This document shows, one piece after another, positions 12,537 to 32,207 of a stretch of DNA of 64,000 nt. Under the pieces are notes generated by a model. It searched no databases and was not told the DNA's origin. It saw only the letters and a program-made list of their open reading frames with translations. Positions within the stretch are counted from its first letter, which is position 1; every line of letters starts with the position of its first letter. A program made the position numbers and the translations under genes. The stretch comes from Escherichia phage OSYSP: the sequence record MF402939, one strand, 5' to 3'.

Positions 12537-12571
12537 CAGAAAAGCCCGCGCTCTCGGAGAAAACGCGGGCT
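12537..12571 (-). terminator. rho-independent terminator after the SPFH gene
   Basis: Hairpin GCCCGCG-loop-CGCGGGC followed by TTTT on minus strand; convergent with the previous terminator. Confidence 0.6.
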
Positions 12572-12595
12572 TAGTTCGAAGATTACGTGTAACTA

Positions 12596-13543
12596 TTACT
12601 TGTTACGCATATCCATGATCATTTGACCATCATAGCCAGTGCCAACTACAGTCTGAGGTACACCACCTTGATATTTCTGAGCACGAATCATCTCAACTTC
12701 CAGTTGTTTCCAACGAATCATCTCAGGAGTAATGGTACGTTGCAGTGCGGCGTTAGCTTCAGCTTCTTTCTTAGCTGCGTACAGTTTAGCATCTGCGTCA
12801 CGTTCATTAGCAATAGCTTGGTTATTGCGAGCTTCACGATCTGCTTCTGCTTGTTTAACTTTTTGCTGTGCTTCCTGTTCAACGCGGGCAAGTTCAGCTT
12901 TCGCAGCGTTAACTTGCTCTTCACGAACTTTGGTATTCTGTACCTGTTCCATGATTACCGGTGGCAAAGTAATATCTTGAAGAAACACCTGCTTAACTGT
13001 GTAACCATATGGGCGTGCATACTCTTCAACTTCCTGTTGAATTGCAGTTTGCAATTGAGCCTGAATTTTAGCATCAAACAAATCTTGTGCTTTAGGTACA
13101 GACTTACCAAACTCACAAATAGTAGATAGTAATTTTTCAGTTACATATTTGTCTAACGCTTGATCCTGAGTACCTGCATTAATACGGTTAATCGGTGCCT
13201 TAGAACCATCAAACTGCAACATAACAGTCAGATCAACAGTGGATTTAAACTTATCCTGACTAGGAACCTGAAGTTTATCTAATTTTACAGCAATATCTTT
13301 TGTACTAAAAGTATCGAAAGATGCAAACGGGTTTACAATATGGAAACCAGGTAATACTGGATTAGGGTCTACTTTACCCAGGAATGTTTGAGTTTTAACC
13401 GTACCATCAGAAACAATAGTATATGAATTAAAAGCTAGGATTAAACCTGCTAAACCAACTACAGCACCAATACCCCAACGTTTAATAGTGCGAATTACTT
13501 TTTGCTCAGAAGTCAGTTCTTTCATATTTTTAGTATTAAACAT
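12596..13543 (-). CDS. SPFH/band-7 (HflK/HflC-like) membrane protein
   Basis: 315 aa; N-terminal hydrophobic helix (IGAVVGLAGLILAF), then SPFH-like core and long Ala/Glu/Gln-rich coiled coil; AAGGA SD. Confidence 0.6.
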   Translation of the reverse strand: MFNTKNMKELTSEQKVIRTIKRWGIGAVVGLAGLILAFNSYTIVSDGTVKTQTFLGKVDPNPVLPGFHIVNPFASFDTFSTKDIAVKLDKLQVPSQDKFKSTVDLTVMLQFDGSKAPINRINAGTQDQALDKYVTEKLLSTICEFGKSVPKAQDLFDAKIQAQLQTAIQQEVEEYARPYGYTVKQVFLQDITLPPVIMEQVQNTKVREEQVNAAKAELARVEQEAQQKVKQAEADREARNNQAIANERDADAKLYAAKKEAEANAALQRTITPEMIRWKQLEVEMIRAQKYQGGVPQTVVGTGYDGQMIMDMRNK

Positions 13544-13580: not shown

Positions 13581-13652
13581 CCGAGGTGACAGGATTCGAA
13601 CCTGCATAAAGGAATTTAGAAGACTCCTGCCTCTCCCTTAGACTACACCCCG
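13581..13652 (-). tRNA. tRNA-Arg (anticodon TCT), CCA not encoded
   Basis: Acceptor CGGGGTG/CACCTCG, anticodon arm GGAGT-CTTCTAA-ATTCC, T-arm GCAGG-TTCGAAT-CCTGT. Confidence 0.55.
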
Positions 13653-14152
13653 TTTAAGTATTTTTAAGAACTCTCGTAAAAACTCTTAAAAATACAGACG
13701 ATACCGGGAGAGTCATAAGTCTCACTCATTAAGTATTTCAAGACAAAATACAGTAACGTCTATTATTTTCCAGTTTAAGTCAGGGTGACTTAGTGGTTAT
13801 GTCCTGCGGTATATTGAGGACTCGGTTAGGCTTGGGGTCATGACTTCCCGCCTTTTGCTGCTACTCAACAGGAGTTATCGCGAATTACCTGTGCTATTGT
13901 GCACCATTAGTGACATCTCTCATGTCAGCATTTCCCACTTTGTGGATAGCTTGAAAAACTACTCCGATATGGAGAAAGAACTTCACTATCCTAGAATACC
14001 TTCTAAAGTTCTTCTTTAGCCTGGACATAGTTAAATCGTAATAAAACTATTCAGCAGACTGGTTGGTTAGTCTGGAACCAACTACCGCGTGGTTTAGGCA
14101 GTGCGCAACTAACCTCGGAAGCTTTTACGTTAAAAGCATCAGTTATCCAGTT

Positions 14153-14230
14153 CTTACCGACCGTAGGATTCGAACCTACATCTTCCACCAGTTACGGCTT
14201 GATAATACCAATTATACTAGGACGGCAGTG
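14153..14230 (-). tRNA. tRNA-like element, non-canonical (no foldable anticodon stem)
   Basis: T-arm GTAGG-TTCGAAT-CCTAC, D-loop-like AATTGGTA, acceptor GCCGTCC/GGTCGGT with one mismatch; no anticodon arm can be formed. Confidence 0.3.
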
Positions 14231-14449
14231 TTACTACATAAGTGATTTCCACACCCCACTATTTATAAATTAGAGAAGAGTTTAGGGGAGAGGTTTCAGA
14301 CGCCTCATTTTACACGTTCTAGCCACTAACCGGGATTGCCGCCCCCTGTGTACTAGTTTTACAACTAACCCACCGACTCTATTCAATGCGCTCCGGTTGG
14401 GATTCTGCACTCAGCGTAATCGGCTCGCTGTTCCCTAATTTATGAATAT

Positions 14450-14478
14450 ATTATACAGAATTTATAAGCATTTAGCAA
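14450..14478 (-). promoter_or_regulatory. sigma70-type early promoter (TTGCTA-17-TATAAT)
   Basis: Consensus hexamers on minus strand. Confidence 0.6.
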
Positions 14479-14486
14479 ATAAATTT

Positions 14487-14930
14487 TTAATTAAATTCGC
14501 CAGCAATCTGAGCAGCAGTACCACCATCATAACGCCCGGGAAATTCTTCCTTAATCGCTTTCATCAGCATACCTTTTGTAATTCCAGGGTTTAGCTTAAC
14601 TAATTCTGCAAAGTATTTACGAATCTCAGTATCAGATAACTGAGGAGGCAGATACTCCTGCAACCACTTATTTAGAATGTATTCATACTGAGCGGACTGC
14701 AAGCTATAACTATCAAGATCTTGACCATGAAGTTTAGCTTTCATCTGGTTAATGCTTTTTAGTTGAGCTTTGAGATAAGACACAAATTGTTCAGAAGTGA
14801 TGAAATCTTTATCAATACGCTGAAGATCCCCGATTATGGTCTGATAGCTTTTAGCGACTTCTTTATCAGAACCATTAAACTTAGAATCCTGCAAAGCTCT
14901 ACGCAAAACATCTAAAATATTCTCTTCCAT
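14487..14930 (-). CDS. GatB/YqeY-domain-like protein (147 aa)
   Basis: ORF track; size and motifs (GITKGMLMKAIKEEFPGRYDGGTAAQIAGE) resemble YqeY-family proteins; start overlaps stop of upstream small ORF. Confidence 0.5.
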   Translation of the reverse strand: MEENILDVLRRALQDSKFNGSDKEVAKSYQTIIGDLQRIDKDFITSEQFVSYLKAQLKSINQMKAKLHGQDLDSYSLQSAQYEYILNKWLQEYLPPQLSDTEIRKYFAELVKLNPGITKGMLMKAIKEEFPGRYDGGTAAQIAGEFN

Positions 14931-15100
14931 TATTTCATTCCTAACGCTTGGTTAAAAGATTGTTCTGTCATAACTGCTGAGACTTTGGCGAAATCAAACT
15001 TTTTAGGGTTCGTAGTGATCTCAGCAACGTTAGAAGTTTTAACAGTTTTCGTAGTACGAAAACCGCGAGTGTTAACACCAATAATTACAACTGATTTCAT
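14930..15100 (-). CDS. small hypothetical protein (56 aa)
   Basis: Not in ORF track; ATG with GAGGA SD downstream of promoter 15132-15160; stop TAA overlaps next ATG. Confidence 0.4.
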   Translation of the reverse strand: MKSVVIIGVNTRGFRTTKTVKTSNVAEITTNPKKFDFAKVSAVMTEQSFNQALGMK

Positions 15101-15131
15101 ATTTCGCTTCCTCTCATTAATTTATGGAAGT

Positions 15132-15160
15132 ATTATACGGAAATTTAAGTATTTAAGCAA
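15132..15160 (-). promoter_or_regulatory. sigma70-type promoter (TTGCTT-17-TATAAT)
   Basis: Consensus hexamers on minus strand. Confidence 0.6.
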
Positions 15161-15168
15161 GTAAATTT

Positions 15169-15636
15169 TTAAGTTTTAGTGACAACAGGTTTATAAAACG
15201 TATGTCCCTTAATCTTAGTTGTTTTCTTAAACTTCTTTGTCCAGTAAGGTTTATCTTTACCACTATGGAAGTATAGTGCTCCATATGTAGGATCTTGTGG
15301 TAAATCAACGTAGTATATCACTCTAGCTAAATTCTTAGCGGTTTGCCAAGCCTCATCAGTTTTATCAACTTTTGGTCTCTTAGATACCCAAGAGAACTGG
15401 TTAGACTGATATACTACTTTACAGTAGGAATCTGGGAATTTACCGGAGTTTACACGGTTTTTAGTAACGTGTGCAATCGCCGTCATTCCCTTTATGCCCT
15501 CACCACGACTTTCGAAATAGATATTTTTAGCAATGCAATCTATTTCTTTTGCATCGTGCGATGCCTGACTACTAAAGCTGAAGGTAAGGGCAGCTACTAA
15601 AAGCAAAGCTGCCTTCATTCTTTTTACTCCTGCCAA
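15169..15636 (-). CDS. secreted cell-wall hydrolase, SleB/CwlJ-like domain, with signal peptide
   Basis: 155 aa; N-terminal signal peptide (MKAALLLVAALTFSFSSQA); core resembles the SleB/Hydrolase_2 family; start overlaps upstream gene. Confidence 0.55.
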   Translation of the reverse strand: MAGVKRMKAALLLVAALTFSFSSQASHDAKEIDCIAKNIYFESRGEGIKGMTAIAHVTKNRVNSGKFPDSYCKVVYQSNQFSWVSKRPKVDKTDEAWQTAKNLARVIYYVDLPQDPTYGALYFHSGKDKPYWTKKFKKTTKIKGHTFYKPVVTKT

Positions 15637-15941
15637 TCATATTCAACACGATTGGGGTTTTCTTTGTACCCTAAGTCAAGCAAATCATTACGCATATGTT
15701 GCTTAGCTACTGGGTTCGAGGTTACTAGTACCACTTTCTTTGGTCTCTGCCCAAATTCTAAGAGTAAACGAAGAATTTGATAACCTTCCATACCATCTAC
15801 AGCCAAGTCATTATCCATATAAACGAAGTGGCCTGTGGTATCAGTTTTATTCAGAAACTCTACAGCGGCTTCTGGGGTTCGAATGATAATGTCCATTCCG
15901 TGAAGATTACGCACATCATCAATCAAAATATGAAAAGTCAT
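15624..15941 (-). CDS. stand-alone receiver (CheY-like REC) domain-like protein
   Basis: 105 aa; HILIDDV...VYMDNDL...DGMEGYQILR...VVLVTSNP pattern resembles a response-regulator receiver fold; GAGG SD. Confidence 0.45.
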   Translation of the reverse strand: MTFHILIDDVRNLHGMDIIIRTPEAAVEFLNKTDTTGHFVYMDNDLAVDGMEGYQILRLLLEFGQRPKKVVLVTSNPVAKQHMRNDLLDLGYKENPNRVEYDWQE

Positions 15942-15971
15942 AATAGCCTCGTTTCATCAATTTAAAAATAT

Positions 15972-16000
15972 ATTATACAGATAACTTAATAAATTAGCAA
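15972..16000 (-). promoter_or_regulatory. sigma70-type promoter (TTGCTA-17-TATAAT)
   Basis: Consensus hexamers on minus strand upstream of the receiver/hydrolase/YqeY operon. Confidence 0.6.
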
Positions 16001-16383
16001 ATACATTTTTAAATTGTGAAACTAGTAAACCGATAAACAGCCTAGAGGCGCCACAGGCCATATCTTATGAGCCATGTACCTTTGATCTAGGGTTTGAATC
16101 ATCAACGAATACTTTGCATCTTTTAGCTTTAGAAGTTTAGAAGTTTGAGTTCTTTAAACTTTTCAGCTTTCATACTTAAATGTTGATCTTTGAAGTTGTG
16201 TCGGTAATATCAACGACGCTTTGTTCTTACGTGTCAGCTTAAAAGGCTGGTGTAATAAACATAATCTCCAATAGATTATACTTTATAGTATGGTCAGCGG
16301 TCTTATTTAACCTCGTATTTCAACCGCTGCTGCGAGGTAAGATGCTTGGGCTTTCGTCTACCGATTTACTAGCTTTTAAATTA

Positions 16384-17022
16384 TTACTCTACTTCAATAA
16401 AGGTAGAGGCGTTAGACTCGGACAGAACAAAGTCAACATTTGTTGCAAAGTCCTGGTATTCCTCGTCATGCTGCTTAATCAGCTTCTCCAGTTCCAGCGG
16501 ATCAATCAAGAATGGAGTATTCTTGAGTTCTAGCAGATTGAGCTGCATTTTAACTTCATCTTCGGAAGTTTTCTTATCGCGGGTAGCCATGCTATCCTGC
16601 AAACGCTCATATTTAGCATCAAACTGTGCTTTCTGCGTATTAAACTTAACCGTAGCGGCATGGAACTGCTTACGCATGTTAGCCAACAGCTGAGCTTTAA
16701 GCTCCATAGAACGCTTAGCTTCAATTGCTTCCGCAACAGTCATCTTACGAGAGCCAATCTCAACGATTGTTTCCGCATTGCTCTTAATCAGAGCAGCTTT
16801 GATACAATCACGCTGGGACATCATATCTAGGAGAGATTGGAAATCTGCCTTAATACGAGCAGATAGATCGTCTACTTCGATTGCAGCGCCAACTACAACC
16901 TTATTTTTATCCTTACCTTCACCAACAGCGATCAGAAGCTGTTGTTCAGTAGCTTTACGGATTTTAGCTTCCAGAGATTTGATAGTTGCCAGAGCGCGAG
17001 TTTTAGAAATACGAGTAGTCAT
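16384..17022 (-). CDS. hypothetical protein (212 aa)
   Basis: ORF track; AAGGA SD. Confidence 0.65.
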   Translation of the reverse strand: MTTRISKTRALATIKSLEAKIRKATEQQLLIAVGEGKDKNKVVVGAAIEVDDLSARIKADFQSLLDMMSQRDCIKAALIKSNAETIVEIGSRKMTVAEAIEAKRSMELKAQLLANMRKQFHAATVKFNTQKAQFDAKYERLQDSMATRDKKTSEDEVKMQLNLLELKNTPFLIDPLELEKLIKQHDEEYQDFATNVDFVLSESNASTFIEVE

Positions 17023-29698: not shown

Positions 29699-29885
29699 TT
29701 TAAACACCGCTTTGGAAAACGCACTAATGCAGCACTGGGAAACTGGTTATAAGGATGGTGTTGAATCCTGCGCTACTATGCTAGAAGTTATTGCTAGTAC
29801 CTTAGTGGAGAAAGGTAATAAAGAATTGGCTGAGCTATTAGACAGTATTGGGCAAAACTTTAGAGAACAGGTGAAAAATGCGTAG
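29664..29885 (+). CDS. hypothetical protein (73 aa)
   Basis: ORF track; GAGGAG SD; overlaps previous ORF by 35 nt. Confidence 0.45.
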   Translation: MAFSKPMLPGSDLNTALENALMQHWETGYKDGVESCATMLEVIASTLVEKGNKELAELLDSIGQNFREQVKNA

Positions 29886-30702
29886 ATTAATTATTATCAG
29901 TGGTGCAGGTTTGAGTGTTGAAAGCGGTGTACGAGCCTTCCGTACTGATACTGCTAGTGGTAAAGCATTGTGGGATGATTATGATTTAGAAGAGGTATGT
30001 AGTATTCATGCCTTTCGTGGTAACTTTTATCATAAAACCCATATGTTTTACAACAAGCGACGTGAAGAGCTAAAAACTGTTGAGCCTAACCTTGCGCATC
30101 TTCGTATTGGTGAGTGGTATAAGAAATATCCGGGTCAAGTAGTAAATTTGACTACTAACGTTGATGACCTTATTGAGCGTGCTGGTGTTCCCCATAATGA
30201 TATTCTCCACATTCATGGATACTTAAAGGAGGTTGTTGTAGCTGATAGCTACAATAGTAGTAATAAACGAATTATTGATGTTGGGTATAACTCTATTGAT
30301 CCGGATGATTATAAATGGGTTAAACCTAATGTAATCTTCTTTGGGGAGCATGCTCCAGCGTACGCAGAAATGTACAATATTTTTGATGGTATTACCAGTC
30401 AAGATATGGTCGTTGTAGTTGGTTGCTCTAACCAAGTAATTAACTTCTACTGGGAATTATTCCCTGTTCTTAACCGTACTGCTGCGAAACTTATGGTGGT
30501 TAACTACTACGATAGTGCCCTAGCGGCAGAACCAGGTTATCAAGGTATGACTCGTAGTGAGATGTACCAGTTGGAAGAACGCGGTATCCCCTACTGGAGT
30601 AAAGGTGCGGTAGATGCTTTCAGTGATCCTGGTTTTATTGCTCGTGTAGAAGCTCATCTAGAGGGTAGACCTTATATGCCGGGAAAACAGATATGTCCAT
30701 AG
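29878..30702 (+). CDS. Sir2 (sirtuin)-like NAD-binding protein
   Basis: 274 aa; N-terminal IISGAGLSVESGVRAFR matches the sirtuin GAGxS..SGIP.FR NAD-binding motif; TTNVDDL and HIHG motifs; no zinc-binding Cys pairs seen. Confidence 0.6.
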   Translation: MRRLIIISGAGLSVESGVRAFRTDTASGKALWDDYDLEEVCSIHAFRGNFYHKTHMFYNKRREELKTVEPNLAHLRIGEWYKKYPGQVVNLTTNVDDLIERAGVPHNDILHIHGYLKEVVVADSYNSSNKRIIDVGYNSIDPDDYKWVKPNVIFFGEHAPAYAEMYNIFDGITSQDMVVVVGCSNQVINFYWELFPVLNRTAAKLMVVNYYDSALAAEPGYQGMTRSEMYQLEERGIPYWSKGAVDAFSDPGFIARVEAHLEGRPYMPGKQICP

Positions 30703-30875
30703 TTAAATCTGTGTATACACATCCAGATGATATATTTGTATGGGCGGATGGTAGTTGGTGCTATCGATGTGAGTTATGGGAAATGGACTATAAATCTGAT
30801 GACTATGGTGTCATATATGTTGATACGGTTGAGTATGATACGTTCTTAGAAAGGGACAAAAATGGAAATAAGTAA
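30693..30875 (+). CDS. hypothetical protein (60 aa)
   Basis: ORF track; overlaps both neighbours by a few nt. Confidence 0.4.
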   Translation: MSIVKSVYTHPDDIFVWADGSWCYRCELWEMDYKSDDYGVIYVDTVEYDTFLERDKNGNK

Positions 30876-31368
30876 TACTCCAATTATTTTTCTAGATATT
30901 GATGGGGTGCTCAACTCGAGCATCTCCCATCACCATGCACCTGATGATGAAAAGATTTTCTTTGGAAGTGACTGGGTTTTTAAACCGCTTCTCAAGGCTT
31001 TTCAGGACTTTATTCGTCCTTCCCCAATAATGATTGTTGGGGTATCTTCATGGTTCTCTGTCAGGAATGAGATGGAGAACGTTCAGATTATGACCGGATT
31101 AGATCTTATCGATCGTTTTCTTGGTACAACGGATTTTACTGGTGGTGGGCTATCTAGGGGTAATTCTGTTCTTCGCTTCGTTGAAAAACACAAGCTCAAA
31201 CATTGGTGTGTGCTGGATGATGCTGGTGCTATGATGTATCAGTATCCAACGGTTATAGTCAATGGTAGAACTGGAATAAATCTTCAAGATTTAAGAGCTG
31301 TTAGCTATATGTTAGAATTTAGTCCAGATCTTGAAATGTGTAAAGCCCTACAACAATTTAAGGTGTAA
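30862..31368 (+). CDS. HAD-superfamily phosphatase-like protein (possible deoxynucleotide monophosphatase)
   Basis: 168 aa; N-terminal FLDIDGVL motif (DxDx(T/V) nucleophile) typical of HAD hydrolases. Confidence 0.55.
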   Translation: MEISNTPIIFLDIDGVLNSSISHHHAPDDEKIFFGSDWVFKPLLKAFQDFIRPSPIMIVGVSSWFSVRNEMENVQIMTGLDLIDRFLGTTDFTGGGLSRGNSVLRFVEKHKLKHWCVLDDAGAMMYQYPTVIVNGRTGINLQDLRAVSYMLEFSPDLEMCKALQQFKV

Positions 31369-31370
31369 AT

Positions 31371-31799
31371 ATGTTCAATAATGTATTCTCTAAAGAGGCT
31401 AACCCGATATTGGTTAATTTTTGGCGTACTCTTCCAGCCAACCTGTACAATGAGGCTATTAATGCTCTGAAAATATGGTGTGAGAATAATGAAATCTCCT
31501 TTGCTTTTAAAGGCGAGATTGAGGAGGCTCCCTGTATTGGTTTAATTGTGCAGGTGGAGGATGGTCTTGAAGAGATTGTCGGCTGGAAAGAGTTGGATGA
31601 AATGGGCTTGGTTTTTGCGTTAAACTATAAGCTATTTATGCCCAATAAACACCGTATTGTTGTTAACTATAAAACCAATGAATCTCCTGGTTTTCAAGTT
31701 AATGAACGGTATGGTTGGTCTTACTCACCAGAAGAAGTAAATGATGGTATCCAAAAACTTCGTCGTTTTGGTTATCAAATTCCGGGTTTAACCGCCTAA
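31371..31799 (+). CDS. hypothetical protein, paralog A (142 aa)
   Basis: ORF track; AAGGTG SD; shares PCIG...W.ELD.MGL..ALN..LF.P motif with next ORF. Confidence 0.6.
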   Translation: MFNNVFSKEANPILVNFWRTLPANLYNEAINALKIWCENNEISFAFKGEIEEAPCIGLIVQVEDGLEEIVGWKELDEMGLVFALNYKLFMPNKHRIVVNYKTNESPGFQVNERYGWSYSPEEVNDGIQKLRRFGYQIPGLTA

Positions 31800-31808
31800 G
31801 GGGGCACA

Positions 31809-32207
31809 ATGGAACAAGTATATTGGCGTCAGATTGATCCTAGTTTGGTGAAGCGTGCGGAGAAGCTGCTACAACGTTGGTTGGGGGTAAGACAAGCCTC
31901 CTTCACTTTTCCGGAGCAGCAAATAGACGATCCCTGTATTGGTGTTTTCCTATCAGGCTACGCTAGGGAATGGGAATGGGAATTGGATTGGAATGAGTTG
32001 TCTGCTATGGGTTTAATTGTTGCCCTAAATTTCTCTTTGTTCCATCCACGTGGTTTGGCTATATGTCGTATGCCTGATGATGGTTGTTCACCCCATCTTT
32101 TACAGGTGGAAGATGATATTTGGGAGTACACTCCAGATATTCTCAAAGAAGCTAAAGAACAGTTAAACCATGTTGGGATCTATGTTCCAGGCTTGAATGA
32201 TGAATGA
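31809..32207 (+). CDS. hypothetical protein, paralog B (132 aa)
   Basis: ORF track; AAGGGGG SD; similar to preceding ORF. Confidence 0.6.
   Translation: MEQVYWRQIDPSLVKRAEKLLQRWLGVRQASFTFPEQQIDDPCIGVFLSGYAREWEWELDWNELSAMGLIVALNFSLFHPRGLAICRMPDDGCSPHLLQVEDDIWEYTPDILKEAKEQLNHVGIYVPGLNDE

What the first reader, a model, noticed from the sequence alone, without database searches (positions are those of the whole stretch)
14487..15941. Operon encoding a secreted SleB-like cell-wall hydrolase, a stand-alone receiver-like domain and a YqeY-like protein
A consensus promoter (15972-16000) precedes four overlapping minus-strand genes: a 105-aa CheY-like receiver-domain candidate, a signal-peptide-bearing SleB/CwlJ-type hydrolase, a 56-aa ORF and a GatB/YqeY-domain-like protein. 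A secreted muramidase distinct from a canonical endolysin, coupled to a possible phospho-acceptor domain, is an unusual combination for an early phage operon. It could act in peptidoglycan remodelling during infection or interfere with host signalling.
Basis: partly seen in the sequence, partly recalled or inferred. Interest (0 to 1): 0.55.

Follow-up and report, generated by a model that had tools for sequence, protein, structure and literature searches.

The report
Known T5 early accessory gene block
This stretch is the already-annotated T5.084–T5.081 block of a T5-like phage: four small accessory early genes that sit side by side but show no sign of working together, so it is ordinary apart from their untested biochemistry.

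Summary
The ORFs, the promoter and three of the four fold guesses are real. The window is a Tequintavirus, 99.8% identical to Escherichia phage ESCO40, and the region equals T5 genes T5.084–T5.081, present in more than 440 deposited phages. It is not one operon of four overlapping genes. A second T5 early promoter (15132–15160, T5 "P-D/E 33") splits it into cREC + hydrolase and DUF7616 + YqeY-like, and only the last pair overlaps. The "receiver" has a true CheY-like fold, but it belongs to cREC_REC (PF20274). This minimal Rec lacks helices α1 and α5 and the conserved lysine, and was predicted in 2021 to be a cyclic-phosphate esterase. The hydrolase is a single-domain SleB/CwlJ-type enzyme with a signal-peptide-like N-terminus and intact catalytic-groove residues. 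That is a common lysin domain in Gram-negative phages, and it lies far from the T5 holin/endolysin cassette. The 147-aa protein has a full YqeY fold, so it is a predicted tRNA binder and not an amidotransferase. Adjacency of cREC and hydrolase breaks down in phage My1, a metagenomic relative and Vibrio phages. A T5 CRISPRi-ART screen scored all four genes "Not Fit". Verdict: already known, with no evidence of functional coupling and low interest.

The parts
15972..16000 (-). T5-type early sigma-70 promoter upstream of the cREC gene (TTGCTA-17-TATAAT)
   Evidence: It aligns to the promoter annotated upstream of T5.084.
15624..15941 (-). cREC gene (T5.084 homologue), 105 aa. A minimal receiver-fold protein of family PF20274.
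15169..15618 (-). Hydrolase_2 (SleB/CwlJ-type) cell-wall hydrolase gene (T5.083 homologue), 149 aa from ATG 15618. The predicted Sec signal peptide is encoded by about 15562-15618.
   Evidence: Pfam Hydrolase_2 3.8e-25. PDB SleB 4f55 3.6e-8. The N-terminal hydrophobic segment with an AXA-like site (SQA|S) is conserved in homologues of 48-59% identity. E36, R55, Y116 and H139 match the spacing of the B. subtilis SleB groove residues E203, R222, Y278 and H301 (PMC13556211).
15132..15160 (-). Internal T5-type early promoter (TTGCTT-17-TATAAT), equal to T5 'P-D/E 33'
14930..15100 (-). DUF7616 gene (T5.082 homologue), 56 aa, basic (pI 10.4), function unknown
   Evidence: Pfam DUF7616 2.7e-32. phrog_5077. 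Protein properties.
14487..14930 (-). YqeY-fold gene (T5.081 homologue), 147 aa. Start overlaps the DUF7616 stop by 1 nt.
14450..14478 (-). Third T5-type early promoter (T5 'P16-17'), driving the RNAX/tRNA-Arg region
13581..14449 (-). Non-coding RNA region downstream of the block. It holds the T5 RNAX-equivalent stable RNA, with a tRNA-like element at 14155-14226, and tRNA-Arg(TCT) at 13581-13652.
12542..12572 (-). Strong intrinsic terminator after the SPFH/Band_7 gene (12596-13543). It is the first terminator-like site downstream of the three promoters.
   Evidence: It corresponds to T5's annotated 'efficient bidirectional terminator'.

Best explanation
**What it is.** The region is the T5.084-T5.081 segment of the early region of a T5-like phage. 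Host sigma-70 RNA polymerase transcribes it from tandem strong early promoters at 16000, 15160 and 14478.

**Transcription (inferred).** No terminator-like site was found before 12542-12572. Transcripts therefore probably run on through RNAX, tRNA-Arg and an SPFH membrane-protein gene.

**The four products.** They are best read as independent accessory proteins that are neighbours by inherited gene order.
1. A cytoplasmic minimal receiver-fold protein of the cREC family. It keeps the acidic Asp pocket and carries extra family-invariant Arg/Asn residues. It most likely acts as a small phosphoesterase on 2',3'-cyclic-phosphate RNA ends or on cyclic-phosphate ADP-ribose derivatives. It is unlikely to be a phospho-acceptor for a histidine kinase.
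2. A single-domain SleB/CwlJ-type peptidoglycan glycan-strand cleaving enzyme. It is exported by Sec, matures by cleavage after about residue 19, and acts in the periplasm. It is an auxiliary wall hydrolase separate from the holin-dependent L-Ala-D-Glu peptidase Lys.
3. A 56-aa basic protein of unknown role.
4. A stand-alone YqeY-fold helical protein. Like the GatB tail and the Deinococcus GlnRS appendage, it most likely binds tRNA and has no amidotransferase chemistry.

**Shown versus inferred.** Shown: gene structure, promoters, family and fold assignments, residue conservation, breakage of the linkage in relatives. Inferred: export, every enzymatic activity, tRNA binding, read-through transcription.
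For: **Identity**
- 99.8% identical to phage ESCO40. Matches in 445 phage records, 357 of them covering at least 80% of the query.
- One-to-one match with T5 annotation, including the three promoters.

**Families and folds:**

**cREC**
- An alignment of 140 family representatives shows invariant D8, D9, R11, R21, D43, D45, G53, P67, T/S74 and N76, and no conserved Lys after beta5.
- The AF2 model lacks alpha1 and alpha5.
- There is no PF00072 hit.
- The family was predicted to process cyclic phosphates (PMC7824862, PMC9503650).
- The same genome encodes Sir2 and an HAD_SAK_2 RNA-repair phosphatase at 29878-31368.

**Hydrolase**
- Catalytic-groove residues are conserved, and C28 and C66 are invariant, which is consistent with a periplasmic disulfide.
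- Signal-peptide features recur in five T5-family homologues and in an rV5-like homologue.

**Linkage is not conserved**
- In phage My1 the cREC gene lies five genes (about 2.8 kb) from the hydrolase.
- In L004 a Sequestin gene lies between cREC and the hydrolase, and an HNH gene lies between DUF7616 and the YqeY-like gene.
- Vibrio straboviruses have cREC with no Hydrolase_2 among the downstream neighbours scanned.
- In rV5-like phages the hydrolase sits beside rIIA/rIIB.

**Dispensability:** the T5 CRISPRi-ART table scores T5.081-T5.084 'Not Fit'.
Against: - No activity of any of the four proteins has been measured, here or in the papers I could search.
- cREC chemistry is a published prediction only (PMC9503650 says so).
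- SleB and CwlJ need muramic-delta-lactam (PMC13556211), which E. coli peptidoglycan is not known to contain (my own knowledge). The substrate of the phage enzyme is therefore unknown.
- No dedicated signal-peptide predictor was available.
- Within Tequintavirus the cREC stop and hydrolase start are 5 nt apart, with the RBS inside the cREC gene. Translational coupling in this lineage cannot be excluded.
- The hydrolase-YqeY-like adjacency does persist in My1.
- The CRISPRi-ART screen had low sensitivity in T5, since even lys and nrdA scored 'Not Fit'. One supplementary sentence also lists T5.084 as 'Fit', contradicting the table.
- The simple terminator scan can miss terminators.
Confidence: 0.72

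Rival explanations
1. First reader's reading. The receiver-like protein and the secreted muramidase form a functional pair in one operon. The receiver domain acts as a phospho-acceptor that regulates the hydrolase or hijacks host two-component signalling.
For: The two genes are adjacent, separated by 5 nt, and share a promoter in Tequintavirus. The acidic pocket is conserved (D8, D9, D43, T74). The fold is a receiver fold.
Against: - There is no PF00072 hit, and the conserved Lys is absent across the family.
- Helices alpha1 and alpha5 are missing. In canonical receivers alpha1 is the kinase-docking surface and alpha5 lies on the output face (established knowledge).
- The adjacency is broken in My1 and L004 and absent in Vibrio phages.
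- One protein is predicted cytoplasmic and the other periplasmic.
- The family's describers state that it is never linked to histidine kinases (PMC7824862).
Confidence: 0.04
2. The Hydrolase_2 protein is a second, Sec-exported endolysin. It contributes to or backs up host lysis alongside the canonical Lys (T5.040).
For: - PHROG phrog_938 and many records call it an endolysin.
- Catalytic residues are intact.
- A Certrevirus homologue with a signal peptide was reported toxic when expressed in E. coli, and a CR3 homologue was implicated in lysis (PMC7344957).
- In the T5 CRISPRi-ART screen the holin scored Fit but lys scored Not Fit. That result is compatible with redundancy.
Against: - It sits about 20 kb from the holin, endolysin and spanin genes, behind an early promoter.
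- An enzyme exported early would act long before lysis unless something restrains it.
- It scored 'Not Fit' in the screen.
- The lys result may only reflect the screen's low sensitivity.
Confidence: 0.3
3. cREC and the YqeY-like protein belong to a dispersed phage tRNA-maintenance toolkit, together with Sir2, the HAD_SAK phosphatase and the phage tRNA set. The toolkit heals tRNAs cut by host anticodon nucleases. The hydrolase and DUF7616 are bystanders.
For: - The block abuts the RNAX/tRNA-Arg unit and the cluster of 23 tRNA genes.
- Two Vibrio straboviruses carry cREC 1.6-2.2 kb downstream of a tRNA cluster, near a DUF2828/DUF7788 protein annotated as RNA-binding.
- Sir2 and HAD_SAK_2 are present in the window.
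- The YqeY fold is a known tRNA-binding module in GatB and D. radiodurans GlnRS (abstracts of PMC1865053 and PMC2811023, listed).
- The cREC-RNA repair linkage is published (PMC9503650).
Against: - No RNA ligase or polynucleotide kinase is annotated in the T5 stretches examined.
- The components are 14 kb apart.
- In My1 no tRNA gene lies within 4 kb of cREC.
- Accessory genes commonly pile up near phage tRNA clusters anyway.
- No biochemical data exist.
Confidence: 0.25
4. cREC is an anti-defence enzyme. It destroys cyclic-phosphate or cyclic ADP-ribose-type immune signalling molecules and does not repair RNA.
For: The family's describers offer this as an alternative: cADPr or 2',3'-cyclic nucleotide processing, with fusions to Nudix (PMC7824862, PMC9503650). 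The gene is expressed early, scored 'Not Fit' on a laboratory host, and is mostly a stand-alone protein of about 100 aa in phages.
Against: There is no experimental support. No defence-related hits were found (PADLOC, although that library covers defence systems and not counter-defence). In T5-like phages no adjacent NAD/ADPr gene is present.
Confidence: 0.15

Closest known systems
Bacteriophage T5 genes T5.084, T5.083, T5.082, T5.081 with promoters 'P-D/E 33' and 'P16-17' (NC_005859)
   Same: Same order, strand, lengths and promoters. The cREC protein is 96% identical and the hydrolase 97% identical.
   Different: Only point differences. The window is closer to phage ESCO40 (99.8% DNA identity).
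cREC (cyclic-phosphate processing Rec) domain, Pfam PF20274 (Iyer, Aravind and colleagues 2021/2022)
   Same: Scores above the Pfam gathering cut-off and carries all family-invariant residues. It is a stand-alone phage protein of about 105 aa, like most members.
   Different: In T5-like phages it is not adjacent to an RNA ligase, Nudix, KptA or sirtuin gene. Sir2 and HAD_SAK lie 14 kb away. Position 47 is Ala where the family usually has Gly.
Two-component receiver domains (CheY, Spo0F; Pfam PF00072)
   Different: It has no alpha1 and no alpha5. The conserved Lys is replaced by Asn95 here and is variable across the family. It has extra invariant Arg11, Arg21, Asp45 and Asn76. There is no PF00072 match.
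Bacillus SleB/CwlJ spore-cortex lytic enzymes (Pfam Hydrolase_2; PDB 4f55, 4fet)
   Same: Homologous catalytic domain. The Glu/Arg/Tyr/His groove residues are conserved at matching spacing.
   Different: It has no N-terminal peptidoglycan-binding domain and no YpeB partner. It scores 50 bits against the SleB equivalog cut-off of 236.5. It has its own signal peptide and a Cys pair that is absent from SleB. Its host wall is not known to contain muramic-delta-lactam (my own knowledge).
Signal-peptide Hydrolase_2 proteins of other Gram-negative phages (rV5-like bas52_0065; Certrevirus CB7_83)
   Same: Single-domain Hydrolase_2 with an N-terminal signal peptide, encoded away from a classic lysis cassette (PMC7344957).
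   Different: About 41-46% identity. The neighbours differ: rIIA/rIIB in rV5-like phages and a putative holin in CB7.
YqeY proteins (B. subtilis 1ng6, C. jejuni 8xje), yeast Aim41, and the GatB tail domain
   Same: Same all-helical two-lobed fold over nearly the whole length, and about the same size (147 aa against 146-148 aa).
   Different: Only 9-15% identity. It falls just below the Pfam cut-off. It has no GatB catalytic domain, so the database label 'tRNA amidotransferase' is not supported. The label 'recombination-related exonuclease' has no basis in any search done here.

Membership tests
Single operon of four overlapping genes | One promoter only, with no internal promoter | tested here: not met
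   An internal T5-type promoter lies at 15132-15160 and aligns to T5 'P-D/E 33'.
Single operon of four overlapping genes | Consecutive genes overlap | tested here: not met
   Only DUF7616 and the YqeY-like gene overlap (1 nt). There is a 5-nt gap after cREC and a 68-nt gap after the hydrolase.
Hydrolase_2 / SleB-CwlJ catalytic domain (PF07486) | Profile score above Pfam's gathering cut-off | tested here: met
   88.9 bits against a cut-off of 27, E 3.8e-25.
Hydrolase_2 / SleB-CwlJ catalytic domain (PF07486) | Catalytic-groove residues (B. subtilis SleB E203, R222, Y278, H301) | tested here: met
   E36, R55, Y116 and H139 occur at matching spacing. E36, R55 and Y116 are invariant in 6 homologues, and H139 is present in 5 of 6. 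The mapping rests on spacing and on the HMMER alignment to 4f55, not on a superposition.
SleB orthologue (NCBIfam TIGR02869 equivalog) | Full-length match including the N-terminal peptidoglycan-binding domain | tested here: not met
   50.4 bits against a cut-off of 236.5. Only model positions 79-201 are matched.
SleB/CwlJ enzymes | Glycan-strand cleaving activity that depends on muramic-delta-lactam | not testable with these tools
   Needs assays on purified sacculi.
Sec-exported periplasmic protein | N-terminal signal peptide: a basic n-region, a hydrophobic h-region of 10 or more residues, and small residues at -1 and -3 | tested here: met
   K2; ALLLVAALTF with mean Kyte-Doolittle 2.7; SQA|S at residues 17-19. 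The same layout occurs in 5 further homologues. These are manual criteria only, with no dedicated predictor.
T5 lysis cassette | Adjacent to holin and spanin genes | tested here: not met
   T5 lys, holin and spanins are T5.040, T5.041 and T5.044/045, about 20 kb from T5.083.
Two-component receiver (Response_reg, PF00072) | Receiver fold with an acidic pocket (Asp-Asp, phospho-acceptor Asp, Thr/Ser) | tested here: met
Two-component receiver (Response_reg, PF00072) | Conserved Lys after beta5 (CheY K109) | tested here: not met
   The aligned position is N95. Positions 93-98 are variable across 140 family representatives.
Two-component receiver (Response_reg, PF00072) | Complete (beta-alpha)5 topology, including alpha1 and alpha5 | tested here: not met
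   The AF2 model (pLDDT 90) has a loop in place of alpha1 and ends after a beta-hairpin, with no alpha5.
Two-component receiver (Response_reg, PF00072) | Profile match to PF00072 | tested here: not met
   No PF00072 hit at E up to 1. None was found for 10 further family members at E up to 0.01.
cREC_REC (PF20274) | Profile score above the gathering cut-off, and family signature residues | tested here: met
   54.8 bits against a cut-off of 27. D8, D9, R11, R21, D43, D45, G53, P67, T74 and N76 are all present.
cREC_REC (PF20274) | Gene-neighbourhood link to RNA-repair or NAD/ADP-ribose enzymes | tested here: inconclusive
   No such neighbour lies within the block. Sir2 and HAD_SAK_2 sit 14 kb away in the same genome. 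DUF4326 follows the block in relatives L004 and L005.
cREC_REC (PF20274) | Cyclic-phosphate esterase activity | not testable with these tools
   This is a published prediction only (PMC9503650).
YqeY (PF09424) | Profile score above the gathering cut-off | tested here: not met
   25.4 bits against a cut-off of 27 for this protein. 11 of 18 relatives match at E below 0.01.
YqeY (PF09424) | YqeY fold over the full length | tested here: met
GatB-type tRNA amidotransferase | GatB catalytic (cradle) domain | tested here: not met
   The 147-aa protein consists only of the YqeY/tail fold. No GatB catalytic-domain hit was found.
DUF7616 (PF24592) | Profile score above the gathering cut-off | tested here: met
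   111 bits against a cut-off of 27, full length 1-56.

The most novel reading that the evidence does not exclude
T5-like phages may carry a dispersed RNA-end-healing and tRNA-protection toolkit that has no ligase of its own. It would comprise the cREC cyclic-phosphate esterase, the Sir2 and HAD_SAK phosphatase genes, a YqeY-fold tRNA binder and the phage tRNA/RNAX set. It would counter host anticodon nucleases, with a host ligase such as RtcB rejoining the ends. Alternatively, cREC could destroy cyclic-phosphate immune signals. Because T5 is easy to manipulate genetically, T5.084 would then be the first tractable model for demonstrating cREC enzymology.
Probability: 0.2. Interest if true: 0.6.

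Novelty: already known. Interest (0 to 1): 0.22.

Why it matters
As framed, the finding matters little. The genes, their promoters and their family labels are already in GenBank records and in Pfam and PHROGs. The secreted-muramidase-plus-receiver pairing is best explained as inherited gene order.

The useful outcomes are corrections:
- The receiver-like protein is a cREC-family member and not a two-component receiver.
- The database labels "tRNA amidotransferase" and "recombination-related exonuclease" on the 147-aa protein are unsupported. It is a YqeY-fold protein.
- The "endolysin" label on T5.083 is untested.

The open questions are experimental. Nobody has measured what a cREC domain does. 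Nobody has shown why many Gram-negative phages export a SleB-like hydrolase from an early or non-cassette position. T5 would be a convenient system for both.

Tried and rejected
- **Paper searches.** Full-text searches for T5.081-T5.084 found nothing relevant. A search for cREC biochemistry found only the two comparative-genomics papers.
- **cREC against solved structures by sequence.** Only insignificant resolvase hits came back, so fold comparison was needed.
- **Related loci.** The search for related loci with the cREC alignment returned only near-identical T5-like contigs. It was no use for testing linkage. tblastn against the phage collection was used for that test.
- **Word-indexed homologue searches.** These reached only T5-family relatives. 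The exhaustive profile search was needed to see the cREC family.
- **Fused partner domains.** Fused cREC proteins among the top 150 representatives were scanned for informative partners. Only an HNH fusion appeared, and no Nudix.
- **PADLOC.** No hits.
- **AlphaFold-database fold search.** Not available.
- **SleB structure paper.** PMC3415495 is not held. Catalytic residues were taken from PMC13556211.
- **One unit regulated by phosphorylation.** Considered and rejected; see the rival explanations.
- **The TTG start at 15636.** Considered and rejected. Homologues and deposited records start at the ATG.
Full report
**1. Source and observation**

The 1.9-kb stretch around the finding is 99.8% identical to Escherichia phage vB_EcoS_ESCO40. 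It matches 445 deposited phage records, almost all of them T5-like Salmonella and Escherichia phages. The window also carries 23 tRNA genes. The region corresponds gene for gene to T5 genes T5.084, T5.083, T5.082 and T5.081 in RefSeq NC_005859.

The four minus-strand ORFs exist as described. The promoter match at 15972-16000 is real: TTGCTA-17-TATAAT, 10 of 12. It belongs to a promoter class that is far above chance, with 21 TTGCTW-N16-18-TATAAT sites in the window against 0.2 expected.

**2. Gene structure differs from the description**

- The 155-aa hydrolase ORF is the mechanical TTG-start ORF. The ATG at 15618, with GGAG 8 nt upstream, gives 149 aa. Deposited records use this start, and divergent homologues begin there. 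With that start the hydrolase gene begins 5 nt after the cREC stop and does not overlap it.
- Between the hydrolase stop (15169) and the 56-aa ORF (15100) lies a second promoter at 15132-15160, TTGCTT-17-TATAAT. It aligns base for base with T5's annotated promoter "P-D/E 33".
- A third promoter at 14450-14478, T5 "P16-17", directly follows the YqeY-like gene. It heads the RNAX stable-RNA/tRNA-Arg region.
- Only the 56-aa and 147-aa genes overlap, through ATAATG.
- On the minus strand, no terminator-like site was found between 16000 and a strong hairpin at 12542-12572. That hairpin lies beyond the SPFH/Band_7 gene and equals T5's "efficient bidirectional terminator".

I infer nested, co-terminal early transcripts, not a self-contained four-gene operon.

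**3. The receiver-like protein (15941-15624)**

- *Family.* Pfam places it in cREC_REC (PF20274; 1.5e-14, 54.8 bits against a cut-off of 27). There is no Response_reg hit.
- *Differences from a working two-component receiver.* The model has a short loop in place of helix alpha1 and ends without alpha5. In an alignment with CheY and Spo0F, D8/D9 match D12/D13, the D43-N-D45 motif matches the D57 region, and T74 matches T87. The invariant receiver Lys (K109) aligns with N95.
- *Family survey.* An exhaustive profile search found 430 clusters at 50% identity. Most are stand-alone proteins of about 100-115 aa. All ten members scanned hit cREC_REC and none hit PF00072. Aligning 139 representatives with the window protein shows near-invariant D8, D9, R11, R21, D43, D45, G53, P67, T/S74 and N76, and no conserved Lys after beta5.
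- *Reading.* The extra invariant Arg and Asn residues around an acidic pocket look like an enzyme site. This is inference.
- *Published view.* The family's describers predicted a cyclic-phosphate or cyclic-ADP-ribose esterase. They report that the domain is never linked to histidine kinases, and they state that it is uncharacterised experimentally (PMC7824862, PMC9503650).
- *Viral neighbours.* The nearest structural neighbours among viral proteins carry the same label.

**4. The hydrolase (15618-15169)**

- *Family.* It matches Hydrolase_2 at 3.8e-25 and the solved SleB catalytic domain 4f55 at 3.6e-8. It is not a SleB orthologue, scoring 50 bits against the equivalog cut-off of 236.5, with only the catalytic part matched.
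- *Catalytic residues.* A 2026 study names the B. subtilis SleB groove residues E203, R222, Y278 and H301 (PMC13556211). These have the same spacing as E36, R55, Y116 and H139 here. The first three are invariant in six T5-family homologues.
- *Export.* The N-terminus (MK-AALLLVAALTFSF-SSQA|S) meets the classical signal-peptide criteria. The same layout recurs in homologues of 48-59% identity and in an rV5-like phage protein.
- *Cys pair.* C28 and C66 are invariant in the six T5-family homologues aligned and absent from SleB. That fits a periplasmic disulfide (inference).
- *How common this is.* By tblastn, Hydrolase_2 homologues occur in 1375 phage records. A survey of phage lysins lists Hydrolase_2 among the catalytic domains that dominate in phages of Gram-negative hosts (PMC8223927).
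- *Earlier mentions.* The T5-family copy was noted in genome papers of 2012 and 2024, the latter describing it as an endolysin "far from holin" (PMC3326045, PMC11180984). A Certrevirus homologue with a signal peptide was reported toxic in E. coli (PMC7344957).
- *Relation to lysis genes.* The canonical T5 lysis genes (T5.040 lys, T5.041 holin, T5.044/045 spanins) lie about 20 kb away.

**5. The 147-aa protein (14930-14487)**

Its Pfam YqeY score is just below the cut-off (25.4 against 27). Several other results support the assignment:
- 11 of 18 relatives match YqeY at E below 0.01.
- A profile of the family hits B. subtilis YqeY (1ng6) at E 0.0025 over nearly the full length.

It is a whole YqeY-fold protein with no GatB catalytic domain. 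The database labels "tRNA amidotransferase" and "recombination-related exonuclease" are therefore unsupported. The GatB tail and the YqeY-like appendage of D. radiodurans GlnRS are described as tRNA-recognition elements (abstracts of PMC2811023 and PMC1865053, listed). tRNA binding here is inference.

**6. The 56-aa protein (15100-14930)**

It is a full-length DUF7616/phrog_5077 member and is basic, with pI 10.4. Nothing more can be said about it.

**7. Is the combination functional?**

- Within the T5 family down to about 53% protein identity, the order cREC, hydrolase, DUF7616, YqeY-like is kept. Other genes are inserted, however: a Sequestin gene between cREC and the hydrolase, an HNH endonuclease between DUF7616 and the YqeY-like gene, and a 74-aa ORF after the hydrolase.
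- In Pectobacterium phage My1, from another Demerecviridae subfamily, the cREC gene sits next to RNase H. It lies five genes (about 2.8 kb) from the hydrolase. The hydrolase is followed directly by the YqeY-like gene (39% identity), with no DUF7616.
- In Vibrio straboviruses the cREC gene lies 1.6-2.2 kb downstream of a tRNA cluster. No Hydrolase_2 was found among the downstream neighbours scanned.
- In an rV5-like phage the signal-peptide Hydrolase_2 gene sits beside rIIA/rIIB.

The cREC-hydrolase pairing is therefore lineage-specific gene order.

**8. Experimental evidence**

A genome-wide CRISPRi-ART screen of T5 scores T5.081, T5.082, T5.083 and T5.084 as "Not Fit" in its table. The paper's list of 17 Fit genes omits them. 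One supplementary sentence names T5.084 among Fit unknowns, which contradicts the table. The screen was insensitive in T5, since lys and nrdA also scored Not Fit. It is weak evidence for dispensability on a laboratory host.

**9. Context bearing on cREC**

The same window encodes Sir2 (29878-30702) and an HAD_SAK_2 "Swiss Army Knife RNA repair" phosphatase (30862-31368). This is the sirtuin-HAD neighbourhood that the 2022 paper describes for phage SP15. No RNA ligase or polynucleotide kinase is annotated in the T5 stretches I examined. A tRNA-repair or anti-signal role for cREC is plausible but unproven.

**10. Verdict**

The feature is already known and annotated, and its biochemistry is untested. 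Interest is low. The main residual value is that T5.084 would be a tractable model for the first cREC enzymology.

Noticed in passing
window 14155-14226 (-), within 13653-14449: The Rfam tRNA model hits at 35.5 bits (cut-off 29) where ARAGORN calls nothing. The hit lies inside the region that T5 annotates as the 719-nt stable 'RNAX' of unknown function, downstream of promoter 14450-14478. Some records annotate small hypothetical ORFs here, which are probably spurious.
   Followed up: no
window 29878-32207 (+): A cluster of Sir2 (PF02146), HAD_SAK_2 (PF18143, the 'Swiss Army Knife RNA repair' phosphatase) and two DUF7415 genes. RefSeq labels T5.105 'Sir2' although it matches the HAD family. T5.107, a DUF7415 protein, is one of only 17 'Fit' genes in the T5 CRISPRi-ART screen.
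   Followed up: partly
window 15942-16383: A 442-nt non-coding gap lies between the 212-aa ORF and the cREC gene, which is unusual in this densely coded genome. In metagenomic relative L004 the equivalent position holds a Sequestin (PF21825) gene.
   Followed up: no
window 16384-17022 (-): A 212-aa early-region ORF (T5.085 homologue) is annotated 'tail fiber protein' in RefSeq and other records. It has no Pfam hit, so the label looks like annotation noise.
   Followed up: partly
L004 6133-6435; L005 5628-5915: In more distant T5-family relatives a DUF4326 gene directly follows the YqeY-like gene. The cREC describers link this domain to NAD/ADP-ribose systems (PMC7824862). It is absent at this position in the window.
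   Followed up: no
protein P0084 (273 aa); phage records H59/H60: An HNH endonuclease-cREC fusion protein occurs in some T5-like phages (HNH_3 at residues 73-107, cREC at 173-257). It probably arose from a homing-endonuclease insertion fused in frame.
   Followed up: partly
L028 5434-6870 (Vibrio phage nt-1 ORF169): Four genes downstream of the Vibrio-phage cREC lies a 478-aa DUF2828 + DUF7788 protein annotated 'RNA-binding protein', followed by an RNaseH_like protein. A tRNA cluster lies 1.6-2.2 kb upstream.
   Followed up: partly
window 12542-12572 (-) and 12596-13543 (-): A very strong hairpin terminator (14-bp stem, 8 G-C pairs) follows an SPFH/Band_7 membrane-protein gene that is annotated 'lipoprotein'. 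It is the first terminator-like site downstream of the three promoters at 16000, 15160 and 14478.
   Followed up: partly
PMC11879866 supplements (T5 screen): The supplementary note lists T5.084 and T5.090 among 'Fit' unknown genes. The fitness table and the 17-gene Fit list give both as 'Not Fit'.
   Followed up: yes
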